Shown: positions 9,925 through 64,000 of the stretch, piece by piece | Position numbering within the stretch: position 1 is the stretch's first letter | How the letters are laid out: each line of letters opens with the position of its first letter | Source of the DNA: an uncultured bacterium | GTDB lineage: Bacteria > Patescibacteriota > Minisyncoccia > UBA6257 > 2-01-FULL-56-20 | Direction: 5' to 3' | Assembly (NCBI GenBank): GCA_963747905.1 | Contig: CAVVHF010000018.1 | Location: 1,135-65,134 of the forward strand | DNA length: 64,000 nt | The notes under the pieces: generated by a model | Told to the model about the DNA's origin: nothing | Databases searched by the model: none | The model's input: only the letters and a program-made list of their open reading frames with translations | Position numbers and translations under genes: made by a program

Positions 9925-11409
9925 CTATCGCGGCGGCAGCGGGATGCCGTGAAAGGTCATCCATGCAGCCCCAAGCGAGGCCGGCAAAATAATCACGAGG
10001 AGGCAGACCGCGTAGGCCACTGCCAGCTTTACAAAACTTTCTTCCCGCGAATCCGTCTCCTTGCCTTTGACTGCCAGGCCAAGGCAGAAAAACGTCATCG
10101 CGAAGAACAGCAGGCGAAGCCCATTTGCTTCCAGCGCCACGACTTTTGCCGCGCGGAAGAATTGGGGCGAATGTAGCGAGAAAAACAACACCGTCCCGAA
10201 TGTGAGAACACACCCGAAAAGGAATTTGGGGAAGCGTACCCATATCTCGCCCACCCCGATCGTTTTGTCGGATGTTGCGTCAGATCGAAGTCGAAGTGCC
10301 CAGATGCCCGCGAGAAGTACAGCGAAGATCCCGATGAAGAGATCTATCTCCAACTTCATCGCGGTGGTGGTCATGAGAATCCACCCTGCCTGATAGCCCG
10401 CGCCCGTAACGGCAACAGCCTTTGCTTGGATCGCCGCCTCGGTTATCGTACCCGCTGCTACCGCCGCTCCGTCGGTCTTTACCGACATCGCCATGAAGCT
10501 TCCGGCGACCAGCGGCTCCTTGTACAAGAACTCACCGGCAACCATGGGAAGAACCACGACCTCGAGGACGGAGAAGCAAACCACGAGCGACGATACCATT
10601 GCAATGACCGCAGGACGGGCTTTGACCGCTGCGCCGATCGCGATCGCGGCAGCGACGCCGCAGATCGAGATCGCCGTCGCGAACACTGCGGCGTCCTCAG
10701 GACTCAAGTGAAAGACCTTGAGCATGACAACAAATACCAATATCCAATCGATCAAGTACACGACGACGACCGCAACGAATCCCCGAAACACGATGGTCCT
10801 TGCAAGATCCAGTTGCGTAGCGTTGTTCGTACCCGCGACCTGCACGGCAAGATAGGCGCCCAATAGGATGAGCCCGATCTTGATGTACAGATCCGCCTGA
10901 AAAGCCTGCAACGGCTTTTCTGTGGTCGCAGAAAAGAATCTGCGATTCCTGAAAGCGAGCCCGGCCAAAAGAAGCAAGACAAGCCCCGCCTCGCTGGTAA
11001 GCCCGAGAGACCATCCGATACCGAAGTCTTTCCGTCGATCGGCAGTGGCAGCGATGTAGCCGAAGCTGCCGATGAATAGCCCCGCCAAGCTGATCCAAAA
11101 AATCGCCGTGAACTCCGCGGCAAATCGCTTGAGGTCATATTTCAACAGCTTCGCGCCAGCCACCATGACGGCCAGCAAGAAGAGATACGTGCAGACCGCC
11201 GAGAGAAAACCCGGCATCCACACATAGCTCTTTGATATCGGAGCGAGCGACTTGGCCACATTTGTCCAAACGCTTACCCCAACTCCCCATCCAAGCGCAT
11301 CTCGGCCCGCGAGAGCGCCCACTAACGCCACGAAGAAAAGGAAAAGGCCCATTCCGAGAGCCATCCAATCCTCCTTAACGCCCGTCGCCAAACTTCTCCA
11401 TCTGTTCAT
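9925..11409 (-). CDS. polytopic inner-membrane protein of unknown function (at least 10 TM segments)
   Basis: 494-aa highly hydrophobic ORF; no catalytic motif recognised; the start may be M16 at 11364. Confidence 0.5.
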   Translation of the reverse strand: MNRWRSLATGVKEDWMALGMGLFLFFVALVGALAGRDALGWGVGVSVWTNVAKSLAPISKSYVWMPGFLSAVCTYLFLLAVMVAGAKLLKYDLKRFAAEFTAIFWISLAGLFIGSFGYIAATADRRKDFGIGWSLGLTSEAGLVLLLLAGLAFRNRRFFSATTEKPLQAFQADLYIKIGLILLGAYLAVQVAGTNNATQLDLARTIVFRGFVAVVVVYLIDWILVFVVMLKVFHLSPEDAAVFATAISICGVAAAIAIGAAVKARPAVIAMVSSLVVCFSVLEVVVLPMVAGEFLYKEPLVAGSFMAMSVKTDGAAVAAGTITEAAIQAKAVAVTGAGYQAGWILMTTTAMKLEIDLFIGIFAVLLAGIWALRLRSDATSDKTIGVGEIWVRFPKFLFGCVLTFGTVLFFSLHSPQFFRAAKVVALEANGLRLLFFAMTFFCLGLAVKGKETDSREESFVKLAVAYAVCLLVIILPASLGAAWMTFHGIPLPPR

Positions 11410-11474
11410 ACGTCCTCCCTTATAAAGACAAGGTTCTAAGCGGATGGTATCACCTATACTAATTGATGTAAATC

Positions 11475-11510
11475 AAAAAGCCCCTTCCAAAAAAAGAAGG
11501 GGCTTTTTGA
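11475..11510. terminator. bidirectional rho-independent terminator (8-bp stem GCCCCTTC/GAAGGGGC, A-run upstream, T-run downstream)
   Basis: aaaaagccccttccaaaaaaagaaggggcttttt read directly; it lies immediately 3' of the KH gene on the minus strand. Confidence 0.55.
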
Positions 11511-11511
11511 T

Positions 11512-11832
11512 TTAATTCTCCGTATGCTCTTCCTCCACCTGCGGCGGATGCTCCGTGCGAGGAGCGCGGGTGCTGCCTTCCGGCTCTTCGATTTTGAGGT
11601 TCACGCGGGCATTGTTCTTGACGCCGACGATCCTCAAGAGCGAACGGATGGCCTTCGCAGTCGCGCCCTGGCGACCGACGACCTGCCCCATGTCCTGCGC
11701 ATTCACGTGAAGCGAGAGCAATACTCCCATCTCGTCGACCTTACGGTCGACCTTCACATCATCCGGATGGTCCACAAGCGACTTTACCAAGTACTCGAGG
11801 AACTCCTGATCTGCTGAAGATGTATTCGTCAT
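11512..11832 (-). CDS. KH-domain RNA-binding protein (YlqC/KhpA-like), downstream of rpsP
   Basis: GxxG KH motif (VVGRQGATAKAIRSLL); conserved rpsP-KH synteny. Confidence 0.7.
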   Translation of the reverse strand: MTNTSSADQEFLEYLVKSLVDHPDDVKVDRKVDEMGVLLSLHVNAQDMGQVVGRQGATAKAIRSLLRIVGVKNNARVNLKIEEPEGSTRAPRTEHPPQVEEEHTEN

Positions 11833-12331: not shown

Positions 12332-12372
12332 GCAAATGTACAGTTAACACCAGGAGGTAACTCTTGCGGCGG

Positions 12373-13280
12373 CAAGGGGTGACGGTGTTCACTGGAACTA
12401 TGAACAACCAACCAACACCGTACGGCAAAGAGCTCCGTCTCCGGTGGTACCGTCTTGTCGAACGGGATCATCGGATGGTCGGAGATGTTTGCCAAACTTT
12501 CGGTATTCCCAAGAAGACATATTACAAATGGTACGCGCGGGATCACGGTTACGGATCAAACGATCACCGGAGCCGGAAGCCCGACGCCAAGACCAAGCTC
12601 GTACCGGATCTCGTCATGTGGATTGTGGAACGGAAGAAGAAAACAAATTACGGGCCACTCAAGATGAAGCTCGAGATCGGGAGAGTCTTCGGACTTACGG
12701 TTTCAACGACGATCCTCTTTCGCCTCTATCGGCGCAAAGGGCTCATTCGAAAGCCCCAGCGAAAGCTCGGCTGGCATGCGCCGCTCAAGGAACCGCTCGT
12801 GATCAGAAAGCCAGGAGAAGGGGTGCAGCTTGATGTGAAATATGTGTATGAAGGAGGCACCCGCCATTACCAGTTCTCGGTCTTCGATCCATGGACGGAG
12901 CTGTATTACTTTCATGTGTTCAAGACGAGAGAAAGCAGGAATGCGGCGGCGGCGATCGAGGAAGCTGAACGATACTTCGGCTTTCCCATTATCTCCGTTC
13001 AGACCGACAACGGGAGCGAGTTCCGCGGCGACTTCCACGCATGGTGCGAAAAGCGCGGTCTTCCGCATTTCTTCATCCCCAAGAGTTCGCCCTGGTGGGA
13101 CGGCAAGGTGGAACGGGTCCATCGCACGATTGATGACGAGTATTATCAGAATCCGTTGCGGCCGTGGCACACGAGGGAGGAATGGCTCACTTACTACAAT
13201 ACCGAACGCATCCATCTCTCGATTGGAGGCATCACGCCGCGAGAAAAGGCCGATCAATATTTATCCACCGTCACCCCTTG
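12373..13280 (+). mobile_element. IS481-family insertion sequence (about 908 bp) bounded by perfect 15-bp terminal inverted repeats CAAGGGGTGACGGTG
   Basis: 15-bp perfect inverted repeats at 12373-12387 and 13266-13280 enclose a single DDE transposase ORF; no target-site duplication is seen. Confidence 0.6.
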
Positions 13281-13281
13281 A
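12400..13281 (+). CDS. IS481-family DDE transposase (N-terminal HTH plus rve integrase core)
   Basis: D(VQLDVKYV)...D(VQTDNGSEF)...E(GKVERVHRT) catalytic triad spacing; N-terminal HTH GIPKKTYYKWY; the architecture matches IS481 Tnp. Confidence 0.8.
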   Translation: MNNQPTPYGKELRLRWYRLVERDHRMVGDVCQTFGIPKKTYYKWYARDHGYGSNDHRSRKPDAKTKLVPDLVMWIVERKKKTNYGPLKMKLEIGRVFGLTVSTTILFRLYRRKGLIRKPQRKLGWHAPLKEPLVIRKPGEGVQLDVKYVYEGGTRHYQFSVFDPWTELYYFHVFKTRESRNAAAAIEEAERYFGFPIISVQTDNGSEFRGDFHAWCEKRGLPHFFIPKSSPWWDGKVERVHRTIDDEYYQNPLRPWHTREEWLTYYNTERIHLSIGGITPREKADQYLSTVTP

Positions 13282-13290
13282 TGTTCACAG

Positions 13291-13370
13291 CAAACAAAAA
13301 ATAGCCCCTCTCTTTTTTGACCGTTATGTCTGCGCACTAGGTCAAAAAAGAGAGGGGCTGTTTTTTGTTT
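13291..13370. terminator. bidirectional rho-independent terminator: perfect 20-bp stem (AGCCCCTCTCTTTTTTGACC) with a 17-nt loop, A-run before and T-run after
   Basis: Read directly from the sequence; serves the transposase on the plus strand and the 13369..14052 gene on the minus strand. Confidence 0.55.
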
Positions 13371-14052
13371 AATGCGTCTCCGTCCTATCTTTCAACTTGT
13401 TCAATAAGTGCGCTGCATAGTCCTTGCCGCCAAGACCGAAGGCCAAGCCGCCGGCGAGCGCGAACATCGCAATGAATCCAGTCACGATCGTCTGGATGAT
13501 CGTCGCCGCAATATTCAGCTGCGTGAGCGCGGTCAACAATCCGAACACGGCAATCGTCCAATACGTGACCGTGCCGAGGAACGGTCCCGAGTGCAGCTTC
13601 GCACTCATCACCGAGGCCGTCACGAGCCTGCGCAGGAAATGCGCGAGCACGAGCGCCGCGAGCATGATGAGCACCGCTGCGATCACGTTCGGCAGATAAT
13701 TCAGGATCGCCGTCAGAAATTCCGACAACGCATACAACTGCAAACTATCCGCGATTGCCACGAAGAACGCAACGATGATGAACCAATATACGAGCTTGCC
13801 GAAAAAGTATGCCGCGCGCAACTTGAGCCCGGCGCGCTCGAAGATCGGCTTCAACCCGATCTTCTCAAGGAATACATCAAGACGGATCCCTTCGAGGATC
13901 TTCTCCACAAGTGCGCCTAACCCCGCCGCCACAATCAAGCCGATGATCAGCACCACGAGTGCACCGACGATATTCGGCAAGTAATTGATAACTCCCCACC
14001 AAAGGTTTTGGAGTGAACCTACCACCACATCCGTCCAACTTTGTACAACCAT
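13369..14052 (-). CDS. membrane protein with a duplicated conserved-TM-helix repeat (MscS-associated TM_helix-like)
   Basis: Internal repeat YLPNIVGALVVLIIG / YLPNVIAAVLIMLAA; 6 predicted TM segments. Confidence 0.45.
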   Translation of the reverse strand: MVVQSWTDVVVGSLQNLWWGVINYLPNIVGALVVLIIGLIVAAGLGALVEKILEGIRLDVFLEKIGLKPIFERAGLKLRAAYFFGKLVYWFIIVAFFVAIADSLQLYALSEFLTAILNYLPNVIAAVLIMLAALVLAHFLRRLVTASVMSAKLHSGPFLGTVTYWTIAVFGLLTALTQLNIAATIIQTIVTGFIAMFALAGGLAFGLGGKDYAAHLLNKLKDRTETH

Positions 14053-19790: not shown

Positions 19791-20483
19791 CTATTTATTC
19801 TTCTTGAGCACGTTCTTTGCCGCCTCAAGCTCAGCTTCCTGCTTGGACGGCCCCAGCCCTTTTGCGATCAACTTGTCGCCATAATAGACGCCCATCATAA
19901 AAATGCGTTTGTGCGCCGGGCCCGTCTCTTCGATCATTTTGTATGTCGGCGTCAGCTTCAGCTTTTCCTGTACCATCTCTTGCAACTCACTCTTTGCGTC
20001 TTTGTACGTTTTATTCTTCAACACCTCGTCAAGATTGCTCATCACGAACTCGTGCACGAACGGACGCATTTTTTCGAATCCCTGGTCGAGATAGATCGCA
20101 CCAATCAACGCCTCCATTGCATTCGCCAGAATGACCTCACGCGCTCGGCCGATATCTTTTTTTTCGCCACGCGACATCAAAATAAATTTTTGCATGCCGA
20201 TCCGCTCGGCCACCTTCGCCAAAATCTGATAGTTCACGAGCGCCGCGCGGAACACCGTGAGCTGTCCTTCCGGCTCGTTCGGAAATTTCTTAAACAACTC
20301 CTCGGAAACAAGGAGTTCGAGCACGGCATCACCGAGATATTCCAACCGCTCATTTTGCGGCAAAGGCCAGCGCGGATATTCGTTGAGATATGAACGATGC
20401 GTCAGCGCCTCCGTCAGAAGGTCCTTGTTGGTGAACGTGATCCCGATATTTTTTTCCAGTTCGTCGGTTGATGATGAAGCCAT
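19791..20483 (-). CDS. rnc: ribonuclease III
   Basis: RNase III signature ERLEYLGDAVL and a C-terminal dsRBD. Confidence 0.9.
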   Translation of the reverse strand: MASSSTDELEKNIGITFTNKDLLTEALTHRSYLNEYPRWPLPQNERLEYLGDAVLELLVSEELFKKFPNEPEGQLTVFRAALVNYQILAKVAERIGMQKFILMSRGEKKDIGRAREVILANAMEALIGAIYLDQGFEKMRPFVHEFVMSNLDEVLKNKTYKDAKSELQEMVQEKLKLTPTYKMIEETGPAHKRIFMMGVYYGDKLIAKGLGPSKQEAELEAAKNVLKKNK

Positions 20484-21806: not shown

Positions 21807-22250
21807 TCAGAGACCGCCGCCGCCAAGGCCTCCCAGGTTATTCACATCATTCAGCGATTGCTGGATATACCCCTGGATCCACAGGGTCGTCAGCCAGACC
21901 GCGACGATGCTCGACGCGACGAGCAGGACGAGCATGATGGCGCCAATCTGCTTGGCGCGCGGATCCGGCGAGCGGAGATATTTGATGCCCTGCCACTTGG
22001 TGATTGCAAGATACGCGATCCACGGGAGGACGATACTGAACGCATAGAGTAACAACTGGTCGCCGACGCCCGTGCCGAGAGGTGCCTCAGTCAGTTTCGC
22101 GCCGCAGTTCGGACAGAAATAATATTCCGGCTTTGTGGGAAAGTGGCAACGCGGGCAAATCTGCGCCCCGGCATATCCGGCTACCGTAGCAGGCACTGAC
22201 GGTTGCTGCGGCGTCTGTTGCGACAGTGTAGGTACTGCGTTCTCATCCAT
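21807..22250 (-). CDS. zinc-ribbon (CPRC...CPNC) membrane protein, hypothetical
   Basis: ICPRCHF...FCPNCGAKL zinc ribbon followed by two TM helices and a Gly-rich tail. Confidence 0.5.
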   Translation of the reverse strand: MDENAVPTLSQQTPQQPSVPATVAGYAGAQICPRCHFPTKPEYYFCPNCGAKLTEAPLGTGVGDQLLLYAFSIVLPWIAYLAITKWQGIKYLRSPDPRAKQIGAIMLVLLVASSIVAVWLTTLWIQGYIQQSLNDVNNLGGLGGGGL

Positions 22251-22270
22251 AGTATGTTCATTCTACCACG

Positions 22271-22978
22271 ATGGATTATAATGGCGGTATGGAGTTCAGT
22301 TTCCTTCCCGACGATACCATAAGGGACCTTCAGAAGTTCGTGACGGAGGTCTATGCCGTACCGGATGACCGGATCTATTCGTTATGGGATCTGCTCGTTC
22401 AGGAAGAGCGCTTTGCTATGCGGGCACTCAAGGGCATCCGGCAGAATGACATACAGAAACTGGGACATAATCTTCTCATTTCGTTTTCCTGGCTGATTTC
22501 CATCGCCAACCGGCTACATATCGACGTGGAGGAAGAAACATGGCGTCGGTTTCCGGGACTCTGCTCATATTGCGGCAAACAGCCGTGTGCGTGCCGGACG
22601 ATCAAACCCTCTGCGCGGCTCAAAATAACCGCCGATGAGAGTACCCGACCAAAAACATTGGCTGACACACAATCAATGTTTGAAGCGATCTATCCGGCCA
22701 ACAAGCGAACCCTCGCCGACGCAGGCGTCCACCTGGCGGAAGAGATCGGGGAAGTTAGCGAAGCGATCCATAACTATCTCGGCGAACATCGGGAAGAGCA
22801 GTTCGATGAGGTGAAGCTGGAGCTCGCCGATCTCGTCTCCTGTATATTCGGCGTCGCGAACTCCGCACACATCAATATCGCAAAAGAGCTCAGTGAAATA
22901 TATCGTGATAATTGCCATATCTGCCATAACGCTCCGTGTACCTGCACCTTCTCCGACATCGTGCGGTTGCGGACGTGA
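22271..22978 (+). CDS. two-domain MazG-like nucleotide pyrophosphohydrolase-fold protein; each domain is followed by a CxxC-x3-PCxC cysteine cluster
   Basis: Two EExxE / ELADLV all-alpha NTP-PPase-like halves; cysteine clusters CSYCGKQPCAC and CHICHNAPCTC. Confidence 0.5.
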   Translation: MDYNGGMEFSFLPDDTIRDLQKFVTEVYAVPDDRIYSLWDLLVQEERFAMRALKGIRQNDIQKLGHNLLISFSWLISIANRLHIDVEEETWRRFPGLCSYCGKQPCACRTIKPSARLKITADESTRPKTLADTQSMFEAIYPANKRTLADAGVHLAEEIGEVSEAIHNYLGEHREEQFDEVKLELADLVSCIFGVANSAHINIAKELSEIYRDNCHICHNAPCTCTFSDIVRLRT

Positions 22979-22994
22979 CGGCCAAGATGGTCCC

Positions 22995-23612
22995 TCAGGA
23001 CACCTTCCTCACTTCTGCCACCTTCAAGTGCGGGATCGCGCGATGCATAACCGGCGGTTTGTCTTCAAAGAATGTCTGCAATATCTGCAACGCATCGCCA
23101 TGGGAAACGAGCAGAATATTTTTGCCGGCGTAGCGCTCTCCCAAATCGTGAATGAGGGCGGCAACCCGAGCCGCGATCTCCGTCGTACTTTCCACATTCG
23201 CATCCCTATGGTCGGGATCGAGAACGTCCTTATCCCATACATTTTGATAATGGACGTCGCTTGTCCCCTCCCAATCGCCGAACCAACGCTCGCGTAACCG
23301 ATCGTCAAAAATAATTTCCACGGGCACCCCTAATACCTCCTTCGCAATCTCCGCCGTTCGCCGGCAACGCGAGAACGGAGAGGAAAAGATGATTGTGTCA
23401 TCTTTTAATAAACCCTGCGCCTTTGCCTCCCGCACCGAACGCCGAACCTGCTCCTCCCCATTCTTCGTAAGCGTATGTTCATCTTTTTCCCCTTCCTCTA
23501 AATGGCTTAAAATGACCCCACGGATATTCGGCATGCTTTCGCCGTGACGCAGGAGAAAATAATGATTTTTAAATATGGGCTTGATCGATTCCCGCGCACC
23601 CGCTTGCTTCAT
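22995..23612 (-). CDS. histidine phosphatase family protein (phosphoglycerate-mutase-like)
   Basis: LLRHGES catalytic RHG motif and a C-terminal SHGD region; the start is chosen at MKQAGARES. Confidence 0.7.
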   Translation of the reverse strand: MKQAGARESIKPIFKNHYFLLRHGESMPNIRGVILSHLEEGEKDEHTLTKNGEEQVRRSVREAKAQGLLKDDTIIFSSPFSRCRRTAEIAKEVLGVPVEIIFDDRLRERWFGDWEGTSDVHYQNVWDKDVLDPDHRDANVESTTEIAARVAALIHDLGERYAGKNILLVSHGDALQILQTFFEDKPPVMHRAIPHLKVAEVRKVS

Positions 23613-23614
23613 AT

Positions 23615-24046
23615 TTATATAATTTCCAATTTTTTGAACCAATATTCCCACGCCGGCTCCAACGTCAATCTTTTGATCTCTTCCTTCGAATACCATCCCG
23701 CCGATTTTGTTTCCCGCATACTGCGTGCGAGATCGCCGAAAATAGGGCAATAGAAAAGATACCAGTAGTGCGAGGTCGCTCCCTTACTACACCAATTCCA
23801 GTCAAGCTCTTCTTCTAAAAGCAACTTGGGATCATGCACATCAAAACCAATCTCCTCTTTGACCTCGCGCATGATGGCATGCCGCTCATCTTCACCCTCG
23901 TCAACGTGCCCCGCGACACCGGCGAACCCGAGCGGCGGCACGGCGCGTTCGATCAAAAGATATTTCCCATCCCGCTCAATGAGGGCGCCCACCGAAAAAT
24001 GCATCAGCTTCCCGTCTTTTGTTCTCCCTTCTTTCGGTGGCACCAT
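23615..24046 (-). CDS. NUDIX hydrolase
   Basis: Nudix box GHVDEGEDERHAIMREVKEEIGF. Confidence 0.8.
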   Translation of the reverse strand: MVPPKEGRTKDGKLMHFSVGALIERDGKYLLIERAVPPLGFAGVAGHVDEGEDERHAIMREVKEEIGFDVHDPKLLLEEELDWNWCSKGATSHYWYLFYCPIFGDLARSMRETKSAGWYSKEEIKRLTLEPAWEYWFKKLEII

Positions 24047-24053
24047 AGATCGA

Positions 24054-24500
24054 TCAAAAACGAATTTTGCTTATATCGCCATTTAAGAATATCGGCTGAA
24101 GACCGTAGATCTCTTCTTTAAAACCAAGGTCGTCAGAAATGGGATTCAGGATGTAGATCGGCTTGCCGTAATCGAAACCGATAGCTGCCTCGATGAGTGT
24201 GTTCCCGCCGATGTAACCGGGGACGCCCTTCTTCTCGTAATTGAGCACGAGCACTGCATCCCCGCTTTTTACTTTTCGCAGATGGTTTTTAATAAGCCAT
24301 GTCTTACGGGCATATTGCTTTGGATCGTCGAACCACGTCCTATAGGTACCCACGCGATAGTCACCGCTTTTTTTCATCTTCATCGCCGTGTACGGCAGCT
24401 TCACGGCATAGCCCATCGCAGTGAGCCGTTTCTCAACTTCCAGCGCCTGTTTAAAAAACGCAGCACTCGAGCAGATGGTGATTATCTTTTTCTTTTTCAT
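24054..24500 (-). CDS. nucleoside 2-deoxyribosyltransferase-like (SLOG superfamily) protein, paralogue 1
   Basis: N-terminal KIITICSS and the GGNTLIEAAIGFDYGKPIYILN motif (T..E.G.A...GKP), as in NDT/Rcl-like proteins. Confidence 0.55.
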   Translation of the reverse strand: MKKKKIITICSSAAFFKQALEVEKRLTAMGYAVKLPYTAMKMKKSGDYRVGTYRTWFDDPKQYARKTWLIKNHLRKVKSGDAVLVLNYEKKGVPGYIGGNTLIEAAIGFDYGKPIYILNPISDDLGFKEEIYGLQPIFLNGDISKIRF

Positions 24501-24501
24501 G

Positions 24502-24930
24502 TTATGCGATGGCAGATAAATTTCCTTTCAGACAAATAGGATCCATAGCCTTTATTTCATCAATATAGGGAACCTCGCTAGGAATATCGTTGAGCAGAAA
24601 TATCTTCTTTTTATTCACGTAGGCCATCCCCATTTCCATGAGACAGTTACCGCCAATATAATTTTTGATGCCTTTCTTCTCCAGGTTTACAATAAGAATC
24701 GCGTCGCTTTGGAGAATGTGGTTATAGTGCTGGCGGATATAATCATGCGCCCGCTTGAAATCAGCACTTTCGCCAGGCAACGCACCTTCGATGAACGCCA
24801 TTGTTTTGCCATTCACATGATCTTCATAATCCTGATGGATCCAGCCGTCGTAACCCAGATCGCAGAGCTGATTCTTGTAATCAACCATTTCCCTTACGAA
24901 GCTATTACTACCAAGAACGTAGACCTTCAT
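24502..24930 (-). CDS. nucleoside 2-deoxyribosyltransferase-like (SLOG superfamily) protein, paralogue 2
   Basis: KVYVLGSNSF and GGNCLMEMGMAYVNKKKIFLLN; clear paralogue of the adjacent gene. Confidence 0.55.
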   Translation of the reverse strand: MKVYVLGSNSFVREMVDYKNQLCDLGYDGWIHQDYEDHVNGKTMAFIEGALPGESADFKRAHDYIRQHYNHILQSDAILIVNLEKKGIKNYIGGNCLMEMGMAYVNKKKIFLLNDIPSEVPYIDEIKAMDPICLKGNLSAIA

Positions 24931-24951
24931 AAAAAATATTGTCGCACCAAT

Positions 24952-25027
24952 CCGACAGAAAAACAAACAGCCGTTCCGCTGAATTATTCTTATCACAAGG
25001 CGGAACGGCTGTTTGTTTTTCTGTCGG
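24952..25027. repeat. perfect 28-bp stem hairpin abutting the 3' end of tRNA-Lys; its loop contains GAATTATTCTTATCAC, the same 16-nt loop as the 63273..63318 hairpin
   Basis: CCGACAGAAAAACAAACAGCCGTTCCGC / GCGGAACGGCTGTTTGTTTTTCTGTCGG with a 20-nt loop, read directly. Confidence 0.5.
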
Positions 25028-25101
25028 TGCCCCCACCAGGATTTGAACCTGGGACCATCTCCTTAAAAGGGAGCTGCTCTACCAGACTGAGCTATAGGGG
25101 C
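25028..25101 (-). tRNA. tRNA-Lys (anticodon UUU); CCA not encoded
   Basis: Hand-folded cloverleaf: acceptor GCCCCTA/TGGGGGC, D-arm GCTCAGTCTGGTAGAGC, anticodon loop CTTTTAA, T-arm CCAGGTTCAAATCCTGG. Confidence 0.8.
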
Positions 25102-25112
25102 AATTCCTGCTA

Positions 25113-25141
25113 ATAGTAGTGAAAATTGTCGGATATTTCAA
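25113..25141 (-). promoter_or_regulatory. sigma70-like promoter of tRNA-Lys (TTGAAA-N17-TACTAT)
   Basis: Hexamers read on the minus strand, 14 nt upstream of the tRNA 5' end. Confidence 0.4.
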
Positions 25142-43602: not shown

Positions 43603-43624
43603 AATCTTATTATACCACCCGGCG

Positions 43625-46198
43625 CTATTTCTGTAGTAACGGCCTCAAGTACTCCCCTGTCACGCTCGCCTTTTTGCGCACAATCTCCTCCGGCGTACCG
43701 GTGGCGACGACAGTCCCGCCACGGGCGCCGCCTTCCGGGCCAAGATCAATCACCCAATCGGCACATTTAATGACATCCAAGTTGTGCTCAATGACGACGA
43801 TCGTGTTGCCGCGGTCCACCAAACGCTGCAGCACCTTGAGGAGTTGGTCCACGTCGGCGAAGTGCAAACCGGTTGTCGGCTCGTCGAGTAGGTAGAGCGT
43901 GCGGCGCGTGTCGCGCTTGCCAAGCTCGGCGGACAGCTTGATGCGCTGCGCCTCACCGCCGGAAAGCGTTGTCGCCGATTGTCCAAGTTCCAAATATCCC
44001 AAACCGACCTCCTCTAATATAGTGAGTTTGTCCATCAGCCATGGAATGTCGCTGAAAAATTCCACCGCTTCCTCGATTGTCATCTGCAGAATGTCGAAAA
44101 TATTTTTTCCTTTGTATTCTACGGCGAGCGTCTCGCGGTCGAAGCGCTTGCCCTTACACACGTCGCACGTGACGTACACCGTCGGCAAGAAATGCATCTC
44201 GATGGCGATCGTGCCGTGACCCTCGCAGTTCTCGCACCGACCACCCGGGACGTTGAAACTGAACCGGCCCGGCTTGTACCCGCGCACGCGCGCGTCTTCC
44301 GTACCGGCAAAGAGATCGCGGATATGCGTCCACGCACCCACGTACGTGGCCGGGTTGGAGCGTGGCGTGCGGCCGATCGCCGCCTGGTCGATATTGATGA
44401 TACGCGTGATATATTCCATACCGAATATGGACTTATATCCACCCGCTTTGAAACTGGCATGATTTAATTTATCCGCGACGGCTTTATACAGCACATCATA
44501 CACGAGTGATGATTTTCCGCTGCCAGACACGCCGGTCACTGCGGTAAAGCGGCGCAACGGAATATCCACATCAATGTCTTTCAAATTATTTGCATGTGCG
44601 CCGCGGATCTTTAAAAATTCCTGCGCGCTACCGCTGCTCCCCAATTTGGTCTTTGCACTCTTTGCGCCGCGTTCCGCCGGCAATACCACCTTACGCCGCG
44701 TCTCCGGCACCTCGATAAATTTTTTACCGCGTAGATATTGCAGGGTGAGCGAATCCTGCTTCATATCTTTGATCAGTTCCGGCATCGGCCCCTGCGCCAC
44801 CACATTGCCGCCATGTACACCTGCGCCCGGCCCGATATCCACCAGATAATCCGACTCGCGAATCGTGTCCTCATCGTGCTCGACGACGATGATCGTGTTG
44901 CCGAGATCACGGAGATCTTTGAGCGTCTGAATAAGCTTCGCGTTATCGCGCTGATGCAGGCCAATCGTCGGCTCATCCAATATATAGAGCGTTCCCACCA
45001 GGCGCGAGCCGATTTGCGACGCGAGCCGGATGCGTTGACCCTCGCCACCGGAAAGCGATCCCGCCCTACGATCGAGCGTCAAATATTCCAAACCAACGTC
45101 CATCATGAATTTTAATCGGTTTTTAATCTCGCGAAGCGGCGCTTCGGCGACTTCATTAAGAGATCCACCGGTAAATTTCAATCCCGAAAAAAACGCGAGC
45201 GCGTCTTCTATCGATAATGCCGTGACGGTATGGATGCTCTTGTCGTCAATCAGTACGTTCAAACTTTCCACACGCAAACGCTTGCCTTCGCATGCCACGC
45301 AGATCTCGTCCGACCAAATATCCTTTGTGCCCAAGCCGTGGCACTCCGGACACGCGCCGTACGGGCTGTTGAATGAGAACAGGCGCGGCTCGATCTCCGG
45401 GAACGAGAACCCGTCGTGCGGGCATGTGAACTTTGCCGACAAAGAAACTTCTTTGTCAGTGATGAGCGTCACGACCGCGTTGCCATATTTGAGCGCGCTC
45501 TCGATTGCTTCCGCTAAACGCAAACGATTATCTTTGTCTTTAAAGTTCATTCCCGACGGAAGGCGATCTACGATGAGGTCGATATCGTGCGCCTTATAGC
45601 GCGAAAGCTCCACGCGTTCGCGGAGTGAATGATATGTGCCGTCAATGCGCACCTCGGAAAATCCCGCATTCAGAAAATCATAAAGCATCTGGTAATACTC
45701 GCCTTTCCGTCCACGCACCACTGGCGCGAGAATAACGAAATTTTTTTTATCTTTATTACCGTCCGAAATCTCGATCGCGACATCCACGATCTCCTCGTTC
45801 GTCAATTTTTTAATTTCACGGCCGCACATGGGGCAATATGGCTTGCCCGCGCGGGCAAAAAGCACACGGAGGTAATCGTAGATCTCGGTGATTGTGGCCA
45901 CCGTGGAACGTGGATTCGCGGAGTGGGATTTTTGGTCGATGGAAATGGCAGGCGAAAGTCCCTCGATCTCGTCCACGTCCGGCTTATCGAGGCGACCCAA
46001 AAACTGTCGCGCGTACGCGGAAAGCGATTCGATGTAACGCCGCTGGCCCTCGGCAAAAATCGTGTCGAACGCGAGCGACGATTTGCCGCTCCCGGAAAGT
46101 CCGGTGAAGACGACCATTTTGTCGCGCGGGATTTCGAGGTCAATGTTCTTAAGGTTGTGCTCACGCGCGCCTTTGATGATTATTTTGTCGTGTTTCAT
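43625..46198 (-). CDS. uvrA: excinuclease ABC subunit A
   Basis: Two ABC ATPase modules (GLSGSGKSS / GVSGSGKSS), zinc-finger CxxC pairs, and LSGGE signatures. Confidence 0.9.
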
Positions 46199-48285: not shown

Positions 48286-48430
48286 AGTAACAATAGATAG
48301 CACTTAGTGCACATAATAAGCAAAGCGCCCCTCGCCCGAGGGCTATAGGGGGTACTCATGCAAAACTTCCTCCCCAGTTTAATCGAAATTTGATGAGGAG
48401 TCAAAGCGAGATATATATAAAAACGAAAAA

Positions 48431-48459
48431 CCGCATTCCGGCCTCACACCGGAAAGCGG
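48431..48459 (-). terminator. rho-independent terminator downstream of nth (stem CCGCATTCCGG/CCGGAAAGCGG; the A-run on the plus strand gives a U-run on the minus strand)
   Basis: Read directly from the sequence. Confidence 0.5.
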
Positions 48460-48483
48460 TCTTTCTTCTAACTAACAAGATTC

Positions 48484-62278: not shown

Positions 62279-62323
62279 ACCTTACCGACACCGGCGCGAC
62301 GCGCGGTACCGCTACCTCAGGAA

Positions 62324-62352
62324 AATATAGCGAAAATAATGAGATTGTGCAA
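62324..62352 (-). promoter_or_regulatory. sigma70-like promoter of tRNA-Thr (TTGCAC-N17-TATATT)
   Basis: Read on the minus strand, about 45 nt upstream of the tRNA. Confidence 0.35.
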
Positions 62353-62393
62353 CCGATAAGCGAGCAGCGAAAAGGAGTAGTAAGGGTGCGACG

Positions 62394-63242
62394 CTATTCC
62401 GGAGTGGTAAGCCAGCGCCACAGGCGCATATACCACGTCAGCTTTTCTTTTGCCGTTCCTTTACGCCGGGTACCTGCCTGAGAAATGATTTTTTTGATCT
62501 TGGGCATCGCGAGCGTCGCCGCGCGGTAACCTTCTTTTATAAGGGGACCGACTTTCCCCCAGTCGGAAGACGTATAGGGTTCAAGGTGGGGTTCGATAAT
62601 AATGTCGGCCAGCTCTCTGTGTATGATACTCTGGCGAAACACCATGATATCCACCGAATTCATCATTACGCCAATAATGCTTTTGGGTCTTTTATAACTA
62701 CGCCATCGGGCGAGGTTCACGCCGATCTTCACGTCGGCATGCAAATCGGCCAGCTCCTTAATCGGAAGATTTTCCACAAGCCCCCCGTCCACGAGGAGAC
62801 GGCCATCTTTTGCGATCGGCGCGAAGAGGCCTGGGATGGCGGTGCTTGCGCGTACGGCATCGACAACGCTTCCCGACCGAAACACTACTTTTTCTCCCGT
62901 GCTGATATCGGTCGCGACAATCGCAAGGGGAATCTTTGCATCTTCGATATTCGCATCATGTCCGATGAGTTTTATAAGGAGGTCACCGACGATCTGATTT
63001 GTCGCGATGCCCATAGCCGAACGGAAGAATCTGGAGAATTTATGCCACGAGAGATTTTCTGCGGCCTTTGCCACATCACTCATTGGTACTCCAAACGCAT
63101 AGCATGCGGCAATGACGGATCCCGCGCTCGTTCCCGAAATACAATCAATGGCTATATCATGATCTTCGAATGACTGAATGACGCCGATATTGGCAATACC
63201 GAGTGCGCTGCCGCCGGAAAGGGCAACGCCGATTTTCTTCAT
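62394..63242 (-). CDS. patatin-like phospholipase
   Basis: Oxyanion GGSALG, nucleophile elbow GTSAGS, and the catalytic Asp in DGG. Confidence 0.8.
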   Translation of the reverse strand: MKKIGVALSGGSALGIANIGVIQSFEDHDIAIDCISGTSAGSVIAACYAFGVPMSDVAKAAENLSWHKFSRFFRSAMGIATNQIVGDLLIKLIGHDANIEDAKIPLAIVATDISTGEKVVFRSGSVVDAVRASTAIPGLFAPIAKDGRLLVDGGLVENLPIKELADLHADVKIGVNLARWRSYKRPKSIIGVMMNSVDIMVFRQSIIHRELADIIIEPHLEPYTSSDWGKVGPLIKEGYRAATLAMPKIKKIISQAGTRRKGTAKEKLTWYMRLWRWLTTPE

Positions 63243-63272
63243 ATTTTTATTGTACGCCTACTTACAACAAAA

Positions 63273-63318
63273 TGTCCCTTTCTGGCGAATTATTCTTATC
63301 ACGAGCCAGAAAGGAACA
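63273..63318. repeat. 14-bp stem hairpin 12 nt downstream of tRNA-Ser whose loop carries GAATTATTCTTATCAC, identical to the loop of the hairpin after tRNA-Lys; probably also the tRNA-Ser terminator
   Basis: TGTCCCTTTCTGGC / GCCAGAAAGGAACA with an 18-nt loop, read directly. Confidence 0.5.
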
Positions 63319-63330
63319 TTTTTGTCGTTG

Positions 63331-63417
63331 CGGAGAGAGTGGGATTCGAACCCACGGTACCCTTTCGAGTACACCGCATTTCGAGTGCGGCGCCTTCGAC
63401 CACTCAGCCATCTCTCC
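63331..63417 (-). tRNA. tRNA-Ser (anticodon CGA) with a long variable arm
   Basis: Acceptor GGAGAGA/TCTCTCC, D-arm GCTGAGTGGTCGAAGGC, anticodon loop CTCGAAA, long variable arm, T-arm GTGGGTTCGAATCCCAC. Confidence 0.8.
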
Positions 63418-63543
63418 CCTGCTCTATGGTTACAGAAACGCGACGCTAATTCAAGAGGCCTAGTGTCCGGATATAGTTATGCCGCCGTCCCTGGTAATAG
63501 GGACAGCGGCCCGTGCAATCTGGGGGTGAAAAATGGTTCAGGT

Positions 63544-63843
63544 CTACGACGCCAATCGCTTGTCTACCTCAGCGCGAATGGATGGCTGTATTTGAATCTC
63601 CCCACGAAGATATTCCCTCTGCGGCCCAGAAAGCAGGTCGAGCTGAAGCTCCGGGGTAATGAGATCCAAAATCCTTTGCACCTTTGGCTCAATGCGGAAT
63701 GGTTGTAGTACTGTGGGAACACTATGTCTCGGGATATGAAGTCCCCGGGTGCGGACTAATGATACAACAGCTGTCGCCATATTCCCCTCGTGGTCTGTTG
63801 CAAAGATTCGCCTTCGGCTTCTTAGTTGAGAAACCAAAAGCAA
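63544..63843 (-). CDS. hypothetical ORF (TTG start or internal Met); coding status uncertain
   Basis: ORF only; the region could instead be non-coding. Confidence 0.2.
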   Translation of the reverse strand: MLLVSQLRSRRRIFATDHEGNMATAVVSLVRTRGLHIPRHSVPTVLQPFRIEPKVQRILDLITPELQLDLLSGPQREYLRGEIQIQPSIRAEVDKRLAS

Positions 63844-63956
63844 CTCCTATCGCCATATCACTCTTTTAAAAAAGAAAAAGCTCTCCGGTGGATAAGCCAT
63901 CGGCAGTTGACTCGCCTACCAAAACGCTTTATACAGATAACAGGACTGGAGGGCAC

Positions 63957-64000
63957 ATGTTAGATATTTCGAATCGATTGCCCAACGGGATTGTTTATCG
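63957..64000 (+). CDS. 5' end of an unidentified gene (MLDISNRLPNGIVY...) running off the window
   Basis: ATG preceded by GGAGGG 6 nt upstream, with a TTGACT -35 and TATACA -10 upstream. Confidence 0.35.
   Translation, partial: MLDISNRLPNGIVY

What the first reader, a model, noticed from the sequence alone, without database searches (positions are those of the whole stretch)
24952..25027. Giant perfect hairpin fused to the 3' end of tRNA-Lys; identical 16-nt loop recurs after tRNA-Ser
A perfect 28-bp stem begins at the nucleotide next to the tRNA-Lys discriminator base. Its loop contains GAATTATTCTTATCAC. The same 16-mer forms the loop of a different-stem hairpin 12 nt 3' of tRNA-Ser (63273-63318). 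Identical loops on unrelated, fully compensated stems imply selection on both pairing and loop sequence. Such elements could be a structured RNA or DNA element, a protein-binding terminator family, the subterminal hairpin of a small mobile element (IS200/IS605-like or MITE), or a recombination site that targets tRNA 3' ends. The loop is itself a near-palindrome (GAATTATTC / GAATAATTC).
Basis: seen in the sequence. Interest (0 to 1): 0.6.

Follow-up and report, generated by a model that had tools for sequence, protein, structure and literature searches.

The report
Terminator hairpins with a conserved cap
The two hairpins are real members of an apparently undescribed family of terminator-like hairpins that follow tRNA genes in a group of tiny uncultivated (Patescibacteria) bacteria, with fast-changing stems but a nearly invariant, strand-specific 18-base cap whose reader is unknown.

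Summary
Observation confirmed. A 28-bp perfect hairpin abuts tRNA-Lys, and a roughly 22-bp hairpin lies 3-7 nt after tRNA-Ser. Both carry GTGATAAGAATAATTC on the tRNA strand.

This is not chance. At least 85 further copies exist in three Patescibacteria genomes and in peat metagenomes, none in viral contigs.
- 52 of 54 tRNA-adjacent copies read the same way relative to the tRNA.
- Stems covary strongly: 96.9% of cells paired, 21 of 22 pairs with double changes.
- The layout is that of a bidirectional intrinsic terminator (A-tract, stem, T-tract).

The "loop" is a structured cap: an internal loop, a mini-helix and an N-R-G-A tetraloop. At least five sister families share it, one of them in the window at 13292-13370.

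Stems are not truly unrelated. The nine cap-proximal pairs are semi-conserved, whole hairpins recur behind different tRNAs, and orthologous tRNAs carry this cap, another cap or none.

In relatives, but not in the window, hairpin plus a new ~105-nt structured module sits between direct repeats of the tRNA 3' end.

Best reading: a terminator or 3'-end element with a factor-recognition cap, spread by recombination. Main rival: a selfish mobile palindrome. No Rfam family or paper matches. Function is untested.

The parts
24952..25027 (-). Family-1 hairpin A. The 5' arm is 25027-25000, the cap ('loop') is 24999-24980, and the 3' arm is 24979-24952. The GC-rich core CAGCCGUUCCGC/GCGGAACGGCUG is flanked by an A-tract and by the U-tract UUUGUUUUU.
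   Evidence: Covariance model R1 scores it 71.1 bits on the - strand and 34.8 bits on the + strand.
24980..24999 (-). Cap of hairpin A. On the tRNA strand it reads CUUGUGAUAAGAAUAAUUCA. This is a variant of the family consensus UCGUGAUAAGAAUAAUUC: position 2 is U, and one extra unpaired base lies on each side.
25028..25101 (-). tRNA-Lys(UUU), whose 3' end abuts hairpin A.
25113..25141 (-). Promoter-like site TTGAAA-17-TACTAT directly upstream of tRNA-Lys. If real, the unit is monocistronic: promoter, tRNA, hairpin.
   Evidence: This is a consensus match only.
63265..63326 (-). Family-1 hairpin B. The perfect core arms are 63322-63305 and 63286-63269, and the helix extends with one bulge. The cap is 63304-63287.
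   Evidence: R1 scores it 68.6 bits on the - strand and 21.1 bits on the + strand.
63287..63304 (-). Cap of hairpin B. It equals the family consensus UCGUGAUAAGAAUAAUUC and is closed by a C-G pair.
63331..63417 (-). tRNA-Ser(CGA), 3-7 nt upstream of hairpin B.
13292..13370 (-). Sister hairpin of family 2. It has 31-bp arms and a 17-nt cap, UAGUGCGCAGACAUAAC in sense, closed by GACC/GGUC. It lies between the convergent genes 12364-13281 (+) and 13369-14052 (-).
19791..20483 (-). RNase III gene. It is an inferred candidate for cutting the stems of 22 bp or more. It is not shown to act on them.
   Evidence: Pfam Ribonucleas_3_3 plus dsrm, E = 3.8e-39.
22165..25027 (-). Gene-content-variable stretch that starts at hairpin A. 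It holds five genes: 142 aa, 148 aa, NUDIX, His_Phos and MazG. Homology to relatives stops exactly at the tRNA end and resumes at the zinc-ribbon gene.
62394..63242 (-). Patatin-like gene. Together with hairpin B it separates tRNA-Ser(CGA) from tRNA-Thr(CGU). In relative L086 the two tRNAs are adjacent and there is no hairpin.

Best explanation
Both hairpins belong to a lineage-specific family, here called family 1. Its members are long, almost perfect palindromes that close tRNA transcription units, and some protein-coding ones, in a clade of peat and soil Patescibacteria.

Step 1 (shown by anatomy, not by experiment). Each is built like a bidirectional intrinsic terminator: an A-rich tract, a stem and a U-rich tract. 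It most likely stops transcription of tRNA-Lys and tRNA-Ser and insulates the next gene.

Step 2 (inferred). The 18-nt 'loop' is a strand-specific structured cap. It consists of a 3x3 internal loop (UCG/UUC), a short mini-helix (U-A, G.A, A-U, U-A) and an AAGA tetraloop. It is read on the transcript of the upstream gene. I propose that it is the handle for a trans-acting factor acting in 3'-end formation or removal of the tRNA trailer. The perfect stems of 22 bp or more are natural substrates for the RNase III encoded in the window. Cleavage there would expose the tRNA 3' end for trimming.

Step 3 (shown comparatively). Copies turn over quickly. They are gained, lost, swapped for sister caps and copied between loci by recombination. 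Sometimes this happens as part of a ~170-nt insertion that duplicates the tRNA 3' end.
For: Family and specificity.
- The 16-mer occurs in multiple copies in three Patescibacteria genomes, always as the cap of a long hairpin.
- The 19-mer found 90 metagenome loci. About 85 of the 92 matches lie in hairpins.
- None of the 43 viral matches is a hairpin.

Terminator layout.
- Positions -22..-18 are 68-82% A and positions +18..+22 are 66-82% T.
- Many copies lie between convergent genes.
- tRNA-Lys has its own promoter-like site.

Pairing under selection.
- 96.9% of cells are paired.
- 21 of 22 pairs show changes on both sides.
- The covariation score is 0.939, against 0.218 in shuffles and 0.17-0.21 in slid controls.

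Strand specificity.
- In the crude neighbour table all 52 copies that directly follow a tRNA are in sense orientation.
- The separate census of 123 distinct tRNA 3' flanks gives 44 exact caps, 5 with one mismatch and 2 antisense. Both antisense copies have a convergent ORF in sense.
- L097 and L136 hold copies in both genomic orientations within 2.5 kb, each following its own tRNA. Orientation therefore tracks transcription, not replication.
- The arms are inverted repeats that could in principle flip the cap. The bias therefore suggests selection (inference).

Structured cap.
- Six cap types share a mini-helix plus an N-R-G-A tetraloop in sense orientation. The mini-helix covaries across them: CGAG/CTCG, TGCG/CGCA, TGTT/AACA, CACGT/ACGTG.
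- The family-1 variant UCGUGCGAAGACGAAUUC changes both A-U pairs to C-G.

Cap more constrained than stems. Non-anchor copies show 0-1 changes in 18 nt, whereas the distal stem positions take all four standard pair types.

RNase III is present in the window.

No known RNA family matches.
Against: - There is no expression or 3'-end data. Termination and RNase III cleavage are inferences.
- An 18-20-nt loop is atypical for intrinsic terminators. The simple terminator scan does not call these hairpins.
- Presence at a given tRNA is patchy among close relatives. tRNA-Lys(UUU) carries family 1 in the window, another cap in L260 and none in L259. tRNA-Ser(CGA) and tRNA-Thr(CGU) have it in some genomes and lack it in others. 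The element is therefore dispensable at each locus, which suits a selfish element as well.
- Stem mismatches show no bias towards the sense RNA: 17 G.U cells against 24 A.C cells. The stems behave as DNA palindromes or as two-strand terminators.
- Most copies were found by exact match to the cap, so cap invariance is overstated by ascertainment.
- The predicted cap mini-helix is thermodynamically weak. RNAfold leaves the loop open.
- No binding factor has been identified.
Confidence: 0.45

Rival explanations
1. Selfish mobile palindrome. The cap, with a variable length of adjoining stem, is a small DNA element. It is copied into terminator apices and tRNA 3' ends by a strand-specific enzyme encoded elsewhere, such as an HUH nuclease or a tyrosine recombinase, or by ectopic gene conversion. 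The cap is conserved because it is the enzyme's recognition or nick site. Termination is a by-product.
For: - Whole hairpins that are nearly identical follow different tRNAs. The cluster AAAAGAAGGA.AG.T.TTTTC.GC lies behind Ser(cga), Lys(ctt), Val(tac) and Tyr(gta), and a close variant of it lies behind Arg(cct). Eleven non-orthologous pairs share 13 or more of 15 distal positions, against none in shuffles.
- Orthologous sites carry different caps or none.
- The window hairpin A and the L260 hairpin share about 19 basal pairs but have different apices.
- L124 and L141 share the stem base, but one has a family-1 apex and the other a GCAA loop.
- Stems are kept as strict Watson-Crick palindromes with no sense-strand bias.
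- Several sister families have the same architecture.
- A conserved loop on variable stems is how rolling-circle and CRESS replication origins look. The cap core CGTGATAAGAATAA resembles the CTTGATA nick motif of the pC194 and phiX174 origins. That resemblance is from memory and was not tested.
Against: - No transposase, Rep or integrase was found in the window or next to the copies examined. The search was not exhaustive.
- There is no target-site duplication or terminal repeat around the window copies.
- Most copies have stems diverged to saturation while the cap is intact. Dead copies of a selfish element should also lose the cap.
- The 52:2 orientation bias relative to tRNAs would need an orientation-specific insertion mechanism at many different tRNAs and also behind ORFs.
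Confidence: 0.3
2. Arm of an attachment site. The hairpin is the element-side flank of small integrative elements that recombine with the T-loop-to-3'-end segment of tRNA genes. It supplies a new terminator for the tRNA.
For: - In at least 13 related loci the order is: tRNA, hairpin, conserved ~105-nt module, exact copy of the last 18-27 nt of that tRNA, then a second and sometimes decayed terminator hairpin (for example L167 and L141).
- The identity block starts in the T-loop. From general knowledge of tRNA att sites, this is what T-loop-targeting tyrosine integrases produce.
- An empty site (L259) and a filled site with a decayed repeat (L260) exist for the very tRNA-Lys(UUU) of the window.
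Against: - The window copies have no repeat of the tRNA end and no module.
- About 40% of copies follow protein genes.
- Three of the 13 aligned modules follow plain small-loop hairpins (L141, L198, L203) and a fourth, decayed copy (L152) follows a family-5 hairpin, so the cap is not required for the module.
- No integrase lies nearby.
- The material between the repeats is only about 170 nt.
Confidence: 0.1
3. Trailer-derived small RNA. The hairpin is released from the tRNA precursor and acts in trans, with the single-stranded cap as a seed or sponge.
For: - The position directly 3' of tRNAs and the strand-specific cap.
- Precedents from general knowledge: 3'-ETS sponges in E. coli, and tRNA-linked pre-miRNA hairpins in MHV68 cut by RNase Z.
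Against: - No complementary target was found. The 16-mer and near matches occur only in the hairpins in the window. All non-hairpin matches in the loci look like chance hits in coding sequence.
- The same cap also follows protein-coding genes.
- Sister caps are largely self-paired.
Confidence: 0.07
4. Chance recurrence, recent local duplication or assembly artefact.
For: None beyond the AT-richness of the 16-mer, which gives many single chance hits in a 596-Gb collection.
Against: - The expected number in the window is 0.08.
- At least 85 hairpin-embedded copies occur in independent data sets.
- The sequence is identical in three full-length contigs from independent assemblies.
- The two window copies are 38 kb apart and have different stems.
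Confidence: 0.01

Closest known systems
Bidirectional intrinsic (Rho-independent) terminators
   Same: An A-tract, a GC-containing stem and a T-tract. They sit at the 3' end of transcription units, often between convergent genes. Plain examples lie in the same window at 11469-11514 and 48421-48469.
   Different: The loops are 17-30 nt instead of 3-8 nt. They carry a conserved, strand-specific, partly self-paired sequence. The stems are 18-36 bp and nearly free of G.U pairs.
REP / BIME / REPIN elements (mobilised by RAYT)
   Same: Dispersed extragenic palindromes at gene 3' ends that can act as terminators or stabilisers. Copies spread within genomes.
   Different: In REPs the stem sequence is the conserved part and the loop is free. 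Here it is the reverse. Copy number is tens per genome, not hundreds. No RAYT was seen.
Integron attC sites
   Same: Structure-defined hairpins of variable sequence at the 3' end of genes. They are strand-specific and act, as folded single strands, as recombination sites next to variable gene content.
   Different: attC conserves the base of the hairpin (R''/R' boxes) and extrahelical bases. Here the base is a variable A/T tract and the apex is conserved. No arrays and no IntI were seen.
Stem-loop origins of rolling-circle replicons (CRESS viruses, pC194/phiX174-type dso)
   Same: A conserved loop motif on stems that differ between replicons, with strand specificity.
   Different: The copies are chromosomal, number many per genome, sit behind tRNAs and have no adjacent Rep gene. 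The sequence resemblance to CTTGATA is recalled from memory, not tested.
Rnt1p (yeast RNase III) substrates capped by AGNN tetraloops
   Same: Long hairpins at RNA 3' ends or spacers whose conserved tetraloop, not the stem sequence, directs an RNase III-type enzyme.
   Different: That system is eukaryotic. The tetraloop consensus here is N-R-G-A, with an internal loop beneath it. Bacterial RNase III is not known to read loops. This is an analogy only.
tRNA-gene attachment sites of integrative elements (T-loop sublocation)
   Same: In relatives, a direct repeat running from the T-loop to the tRNA 3' end brackets hairpin plus module.
   Different: The bracketed DNA is about 170 nt with no genes. 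The same module sits at tRNAs of at least five amino-acid identities. No repeat is present in the window.

Membership tests
Intrinsic terminator | Stable stem followed directly by a U-rich tract on the transcribed strand | tested here: met
   Hairpin A has the core GCGGAACGGCUG followed by UUUGUUUUU. In the family profile, positions +18..+22 are 66-82% T.
Intrinsic terminator | Short loop, about 3-8 nt | tested here: not met
   The loops are 18-20 nt. The consensus terminator scan does not report the hairpins.
Intrinsic terminator | RNA 3' ends map to the U-tract | not testable with these tools
   No transcript data are available.
REP/REPIN | Conserved stem sequence shared by the copies of a genome | tested here: not met
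   The distal stem positions take all four standard pair types and have no consensus base, whereas the cap is invariant in the alignment.
REP/REPIN | Associated RAYT (Y1 transposase) gene | not tested
   Only 30 ORFs were scanned against Pfam, 20 in the window and 10 in related loci. None was a transposase.
Integron attC | R''/R' core sites (RYYYAAC / GTTRRRY) at the base of the hairpin, in arrays next to intI | tested here: not met
   The base is an A-tract/T-tract with no such motif. The copies are single and dispersed.
MITE | Terminal inverted repeats flanked by a target-site duplication | tested here: not met
   The whole element is one palindrome. No flanking duplication is seen at either window copy.
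IS200/IS605 end or PATE | Paired, different left and right subterminal hairpins, with tnpA/tnpB in the genome | tested here: inconclusive
   Only single hairpins are present. No tnpA/tnpB was seen among the ORFs scanned, but the scan was not exhaustive.
tRNA-targeting integrative element (att site) | Direct repeat of the tRNA 3' segment downstream | tested here: not met
   In the window, the tRNA-Lys and tRNA-Ser 3' ends occur only once each at up to 3 mismatches. In relatives the feature is met at 13 or more loci.
tRNA-targeting integrative element (att site) | Integrase gene within the bracketed DNA | tested here: not met
   The bracketed DNA is about 170 nt. The neighbouring genes are housekeeping genes.
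Any Rfam family | Score at or above the gathering threshold | tested here: not met
   Only tRNAs pass in the window. In related loci the hairpins give only sub-threshold matches to miRNA and plastid-UTR families.
DNA uptake sequence | About one copy per kb, genome-wide | tested here: not met
   There are two copies in 64 kb.
Family 1 as defined here | Cap UCGUGAUAAGAAUAAUUC on the strand of the upstream gene, a C-G closing pair, the proximal stem CYYTYYGSC, and a long Watson-Crick stem with outer A/T tracts | tested here: met
   Hairpin B matches fully. Hairpin A has cap position 2 as U and an A instead of G at the 3' closing position. R1 scores are 68.6 and 71.1 bits.

The most novel reading that the evidence does not exclude
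The capped hairpins and the tRNA-end-copying module are parts of an unrecognised system in Patescibacteria. In it, a strand-specific enzyme reads a small structured cap (mini-helix plus N-R-G-A tetraloop). It does one of two things.
(a) It moves terminator cassettes and a ~105-nt RNA that mimics the tRNA 3' end into the T-loop-to-3'-end segment of tRNA genes.
(b) It acts as a loop-guided RNase III-type processing or termination factor that defines tRNA and mRNA 3' ends.
Either would be a mechanism not described for bacteria.
Probability: 0.2. Interest if true: 0.8.

Novelty: new variant of a known kind. Interest (0 to 1): 0.62.

Why it matters
Patescibacteria have tiny genomes and a reduced set of RNA-processing enzymes. 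How they end transcripts and mature their tRNAs, many of which lack an encoded CCA, is largely unknown.

This family reverses the usual pattern for terminators and for extragenic repeats. The stem is free to change but the cap is nearly fixed and strand-specific. That points to a dedicated reader, either a protein that acts at RNA 3' ends or an enzyme that moves these hairpins.

Either outcome would be useful:
- a handle for annotating transcription units in uncultivated genomes;
- a candidate RNA-protein recognition pair;
- a natural set of strong, modular terminators.

The associated module that copies each tRNA's 3' end is a separate, unexplained structured element. It could reveal how small elements target tRNA genes.

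Tried and rejected
- **Chance or artefact.** Rejected.
- **Promoter in the cap.** UGAUAAGAAU gives a poor -10 (A at the last position). Many copies are followed by convergent genes or tRNAs. Rejected by inspection.
- **Known protein sites.** Fur, IHF, Rex/CRP, parS and a K-turn were compared by eye. None fits. These are leads from memory, not tests.
- **Antisense partner.** No complementary copy exists outside hairpins.
- **Phage origin.** The 43 viral matches to the 16-mer are all non-hairpin. The module core and the family-3 cap have no viral match.
- **Replication-linked orientation.** Rejected, because L097 and L136 hold both orientations within 2.5 kb.
- **RNA-only selection on the stem.** Not supported. 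G.U and A.C mismatches are equally frequent.
- **tRNA, tmRNA or a known ribozyme as identity of the module.** ARAGORN and Rfam find nothing. Reading the reverse strand as a tRNA fails by inspection.
- **Integrase next to modules.** Not found.
- **Literature.** Five full-text searches found nothing relevant.

Full report
**1. The observation**

On the + strand, arms 24952-24979 and 25000-25027 are 28 nt long and 100% complementary, with 20 nt between them. Arms 63269-63286 and 63305-63322 are 18 nt long and 94% complementary, with 18 nt between them.

Both tRNAs lie on the - strand:
- tRNA-Lys(UUU): 25028-25101 by Rfam, 25026-25101 by ARAGORN.
- tRNA-Ser(CGA): 63331-63417.

Hairpin A therefore starts at the base after the discriminator. 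Hairpin B extends with one bulge to 63265-63326, so it starts 3-7 nt after the tRNA, not 12.

Folding energies on the tRNA strand are -55.4 kcal/mol (z = -9.5) for A and -31.6 kcal/mol (z = -8.5) for B.

The 16-mer occurs exactly twice in the window and has no near matches. The chance expectation is 0.08. Three full-length contigs from independent assemblies of the same species carry an identical hairpin A, and three shorter contigs end within the tRNA or the hairpin's 5' arm.

**2. It is a family**

*Genome collection.* Scanning one genome per species for the 16-mer gave mostly single chance hits. Three Patescibacteria genomes, however, hold several copies each. Every one of those copies is the cap of a long, near-perfect hairpin of 14-36 bp with a different stem.
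- CAYQFA01, labelled Candidatus Saccharibacteria.
- OY970354.1, an 829-kb chromosome.
- JBEKBG01, labelled Minisyncoccia.

*Metagenomes.* The 19-mer TCGTGATAAGAATAATTCG found 90 metagenome loci, mostly from peatland samples. About 85 of the 92 matches are such hairpins.

*Viral contigs.* None of the 43 viral matches is a hairpin.

*Taxonomy of the window.* The window is 77-88% identical in DNA to several of these loci, including the JBEKBG01 genome. Homologues of its MazG-like protein carry Patescibacteria names in their source records.

**3. Position and orientation**

*Neighbour table (crude ORF calls).*
- All 52 copies that directly follow a tRNA have the tRNA strand reading UCGUGAUAAGAAUAAUUC, with the hairpin starting between -6 and +15 nt of the tRNA end.
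- About 22 further copies follow the stop codon of a co-directional ORF.

*Census of tRNA flanks.* Among 123 distinct tRNA 3' flanks, 44 have the exact cap, 5 have one mismatch and 2 are antisense. Both antisense copies have a convergent ORF in sense.

*Range of tRNAs.* The tRNAs cover at least 12 amino-acid identities.

*Transcription or replication.* L097 and L136 hold copies in both genomic orientations within 2.5 kb, each following its own tRNA. Orientation therefore follows transcription, not replication.

**4. Anatomy**

An alignment of 68 distinct copies (A2) gives this profile:
- an outer A-rich 5' tract and T-rich 3' tract;
- a variable middle;
- a semi-conserved proximal stem, 5' C-Y-Y-T-Y-Y-G-S-C, with its complement on the 3' side;
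- the 18-nt cap.

*Pairing.*
- 96.9% of cells are paired.
- 21 of 22 pairs carry changes on both sides.
- The covariation score is 0.939, against 0.218 in shuffles and 0.17-0.21 in slid controls.

*No strand bias in the stems.* Mismatches comprise 17 G.U cells and 24 A.C cells. The stems are therefore kept as DNA palindromes, or as terminators that work on both strands. Only the cap is asymmetric.

*Terminator layout.* The arrangement is that of a bidirectional intrinsic terminator. The window also holds plain versions at 11469-11514 and 48421-48469.

*Model search.* Covariance model R1 finds only the two family-1 copies in the window. They score 71.1 and 68.6 bits on the tRNA strand, against 34.8 and 21.1 bits on the other strand.

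**5. The cap is structured and has sisters**

The same genomes hold other long hairpins with large conserved caps:

| Family | Cap length | Cap sequence (as written) | Closing pairs or note |
|---|---|---|---|
| 2 | 17 nt | GTTGYGTCTGCRCAGCA | GACC/GGTC; the window's 13292-13370 belongs here |
| 3 | 21 nt | TCACGTTCCTACGTGGCATTT | GACGG/CCGTC |
| 4 | 30 nt | GAGCGAGTGGACGTTCCTACGTCGGAGCGA | shares the ACGT-TCCT-ACGT core with family 3 |
| 5 | 19 nt | GAACKRTCATCTnnnnGGA | GCC/GGC |
| 6 | 18 nt | TCCTGAAAGATTAATGTC | seen in L260 and L198 |

Most of these caps share one plan when oriented by their upstream gene: an internal loop, a 2-5-bp mini-helix and an N-R-G-A tetraloop. The mini-helix covaries across them.

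Family 1 fits the plan as UCG-UGAU-[AAGA]-AUAA-UUC. Two copies read UCGUGCGAAGACGAAUU(C/U), which changes both A-U pairs to C-G.

Rfam has no family for any of them. Five literature searches found nothing.

**6. Turnover**

*Stems recur.* One stem type, AAAAGAAGGA.AG.T.TTTTC.GC, follows Ser(cga), Lys(ctt), Val(tac) and Tyr(gta), and a close variant of it follows Arg(cct). Eleven non-orthologous pairs share 13 or more of 15 distal positions, against none in shuffles.

*Unbiased orthologues of hairpin A.* These were reached through the neighbouring MazG-like gene.
- L259 (86% protein identity) has tRNA-Lys(UUU) with no hairpin.
- L260 (83%) has a hairpin with the same basal ~19 bp but a family-6 apex. 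A decayed inverted T-loop copy plus a remnant of the tRNA end follow it, and then the sequence that directly follows the tRNA in L259.

*Variable gene content after tRNA-Lys.* Homology between the window and these relatives stops at the tRNA end (25027) and resumes at 22165. Different genes lie in between.

*Other sites.*
- tRNA-Ser(CGA) and tRNA-Thr(CGU) are adjacent in L086. In the window they are separated by hairpin B plus a patatin gene.
- uvrA is followed by a family-1 hairpin that overlaps its last codons, plus 0.7-1.6 kb of extra DNA, in L138, L153 and L197. The window has none of this.

**7. A second element in relatives**

At 13 or more loci, a tRNA and its terminator hairpin are followed by a conserved ~105-nt module. 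The module ends in an exact 18-27-nt copy of that tRNA's 3' end, running from the T-loop to the discriminator. In 10 of the 13 aligned copies the preceding hairpin is of family 1.

- Its 5' end is complementary to the T-loop/T-stem copy and covaries with the local tRNA.
- The consensus is a three-way junction. 21 of 38 pairs show compensatory changes.
- It has no Rfam match, no viral match and no neighbouring integrase.
- It is absent from the window.
- L193 shows a module next to a family-1 hairpin whose cap is inverted and with no tRNA upstream. The arrangement is therefore not rigid.

**8. Interpretation**

*What fits a terminator or 3'-end element.* The anatomy, the position at unit ends, and the strong orientation bias. 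The bias holds even though the arms could in principle flip the cap by recombination. Together these favour an element whose cap is read on the upstream gene's strand. The window encodes RNase III, for which perfect stems of 22 bp or more are natural substrates. Cutting there would free the tRNA 3' end. This step is inference.

*What fits a selfish, recombining palindrome equally well.* The patchy presence at orthologous tRNAs, the swapping of apices, the copying of whole hairpins between loci, and the strictly Watson-Crick stems. I cannot exclude that the cap is an enzyme's DNA recognition site.

*The attachment-site reading.* It explains the loci that carry the module, but not the window copies or the copies behind ORFs.

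*Ascertainment.* Most copies were found by exact match to the cap, so its invariance is overstated. Copies that were not search anchors show 0-1 changes in 18 nt.

**9. Verdict**

The finding is real, belongs to a sizeable family that appears to be undescribed, and is tied to tRNA 3' ends. I rate it a new variant of a known kind: terminator-forming dispersed palindromes, but with the conservation pattern reversed and a structured, strand-specific cap. Function is untested. Interest 0.62.

Noticed in passing
L136:311-434(-), L167:354-477(+), L086:2524-2647(-), L124:1684-1807(+) and 9 more (alignment A1); not in the window: A conserved ~105-nt structured module lies downstream of tRNA plus terminator hairpin. 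It forms a three-way junction, and 21 of its 38 pairs show compensatory changes. It ends in an exact copy of the local tRNA's last 18-27 nt. Its 5' end is complementary to that tRNA's T-loop. It has no Rfam match, no viral match and no neighbouring integrase.
   Followed up: partly
window 13292-13370: A 31-bp hairpin with a 17-nt cap lies between convergent genes. It belongs to a sister family (family 2) that has the same mini-helix plus N-R-G-A tetraloop design. At least five such cap families coexist in these genomes.
   Followed up: yes
L206:1-226, and start regions of about 30 window genes: The 16S rRNA 3' end reads ...GGAUCAAUUAAACU, with no CCUCC anti-Shine-Dalgarno sequence. Nearly all start codons in the window are preceded by A/U-rich sequence without a Shine-Dalgarno motif. 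The one clear exception is 9925-11409.
   Followed up: partly
window 22165-25027: The stretch after tRNA-Lys and hairpin A is variable in gene content. The window has five genes there: 142 aa, 148 aa, NUDIX, His_Phos and MazG. Relative L259 has one 285-aa gene, and L260 has HIT plus His_Phos. Homology breaks exactly at the tRNA end.
   Followed up: partly
window 62279-63330: Hairpin B plus a patatin-like phospholipase gene (62394-63242) separates tRNA-Ser(CGA) from tRNA-Thr(CGU). In relative L086 the two tRNAs are adjacent.
   Followed up: partly
L138:5050-5850 and L197:5340-6980, against window 43603-43650: Relatives carry a family-1 hairpin that overlaps the last uvrA codons, plus 0.7-1.6 kb of extra DNA absent from the window. 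The extra DNA includes a TTGACA-17-TATTAT promoter-like site and a shared GC-rich stem-loop (GGGTTACCCACTGATCCCCGCA...). The uvrA C-terminal residues differ accordingly.
   Followed up: no
window 62324-62352 (-): A promoter-like site, TTGCAC-17-TATATT, lies upstream of tRNA-Thr(CGU). It is conserved in L086, L136 and L154.
   Followed up: no
window 63249-63254 (-) and 24938-24943 (-): The -10-like hexamers TACAAT and GACAAT lie only 6-7 nt upstream of the ATG of the genes that follow hairpins B and A. This suggests leaderless transcripts whose -35 regions overlap the hairpins' 3' arms.
   Followed up: no
L255, L256, L257 (same-species contigs): Several short-read contigs end inside tRNA-Lys or in the 5' arm of hairpin A. 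This is as expected if the repeat or hairpin breaks assemblies.
   Followed up: no
L193:107-317: A module copy lies next to a family-1 hairpin whose cap is inverted relative to the module, with no tRNA upstream. This suggests that caps can flip or that the arrangement can be rearranged.
   Followed up: no
window 63520-64000: The stretch upstream of tRNA-Ser has no Rfam match. Its only sizeable ORF is a 99-aa one at 63544-63843, which was not scanned against Pfam. The stretch is about 80% conserved in L145. A small 12-bp hairpin lies at 63481-63510.
   Followed up: no
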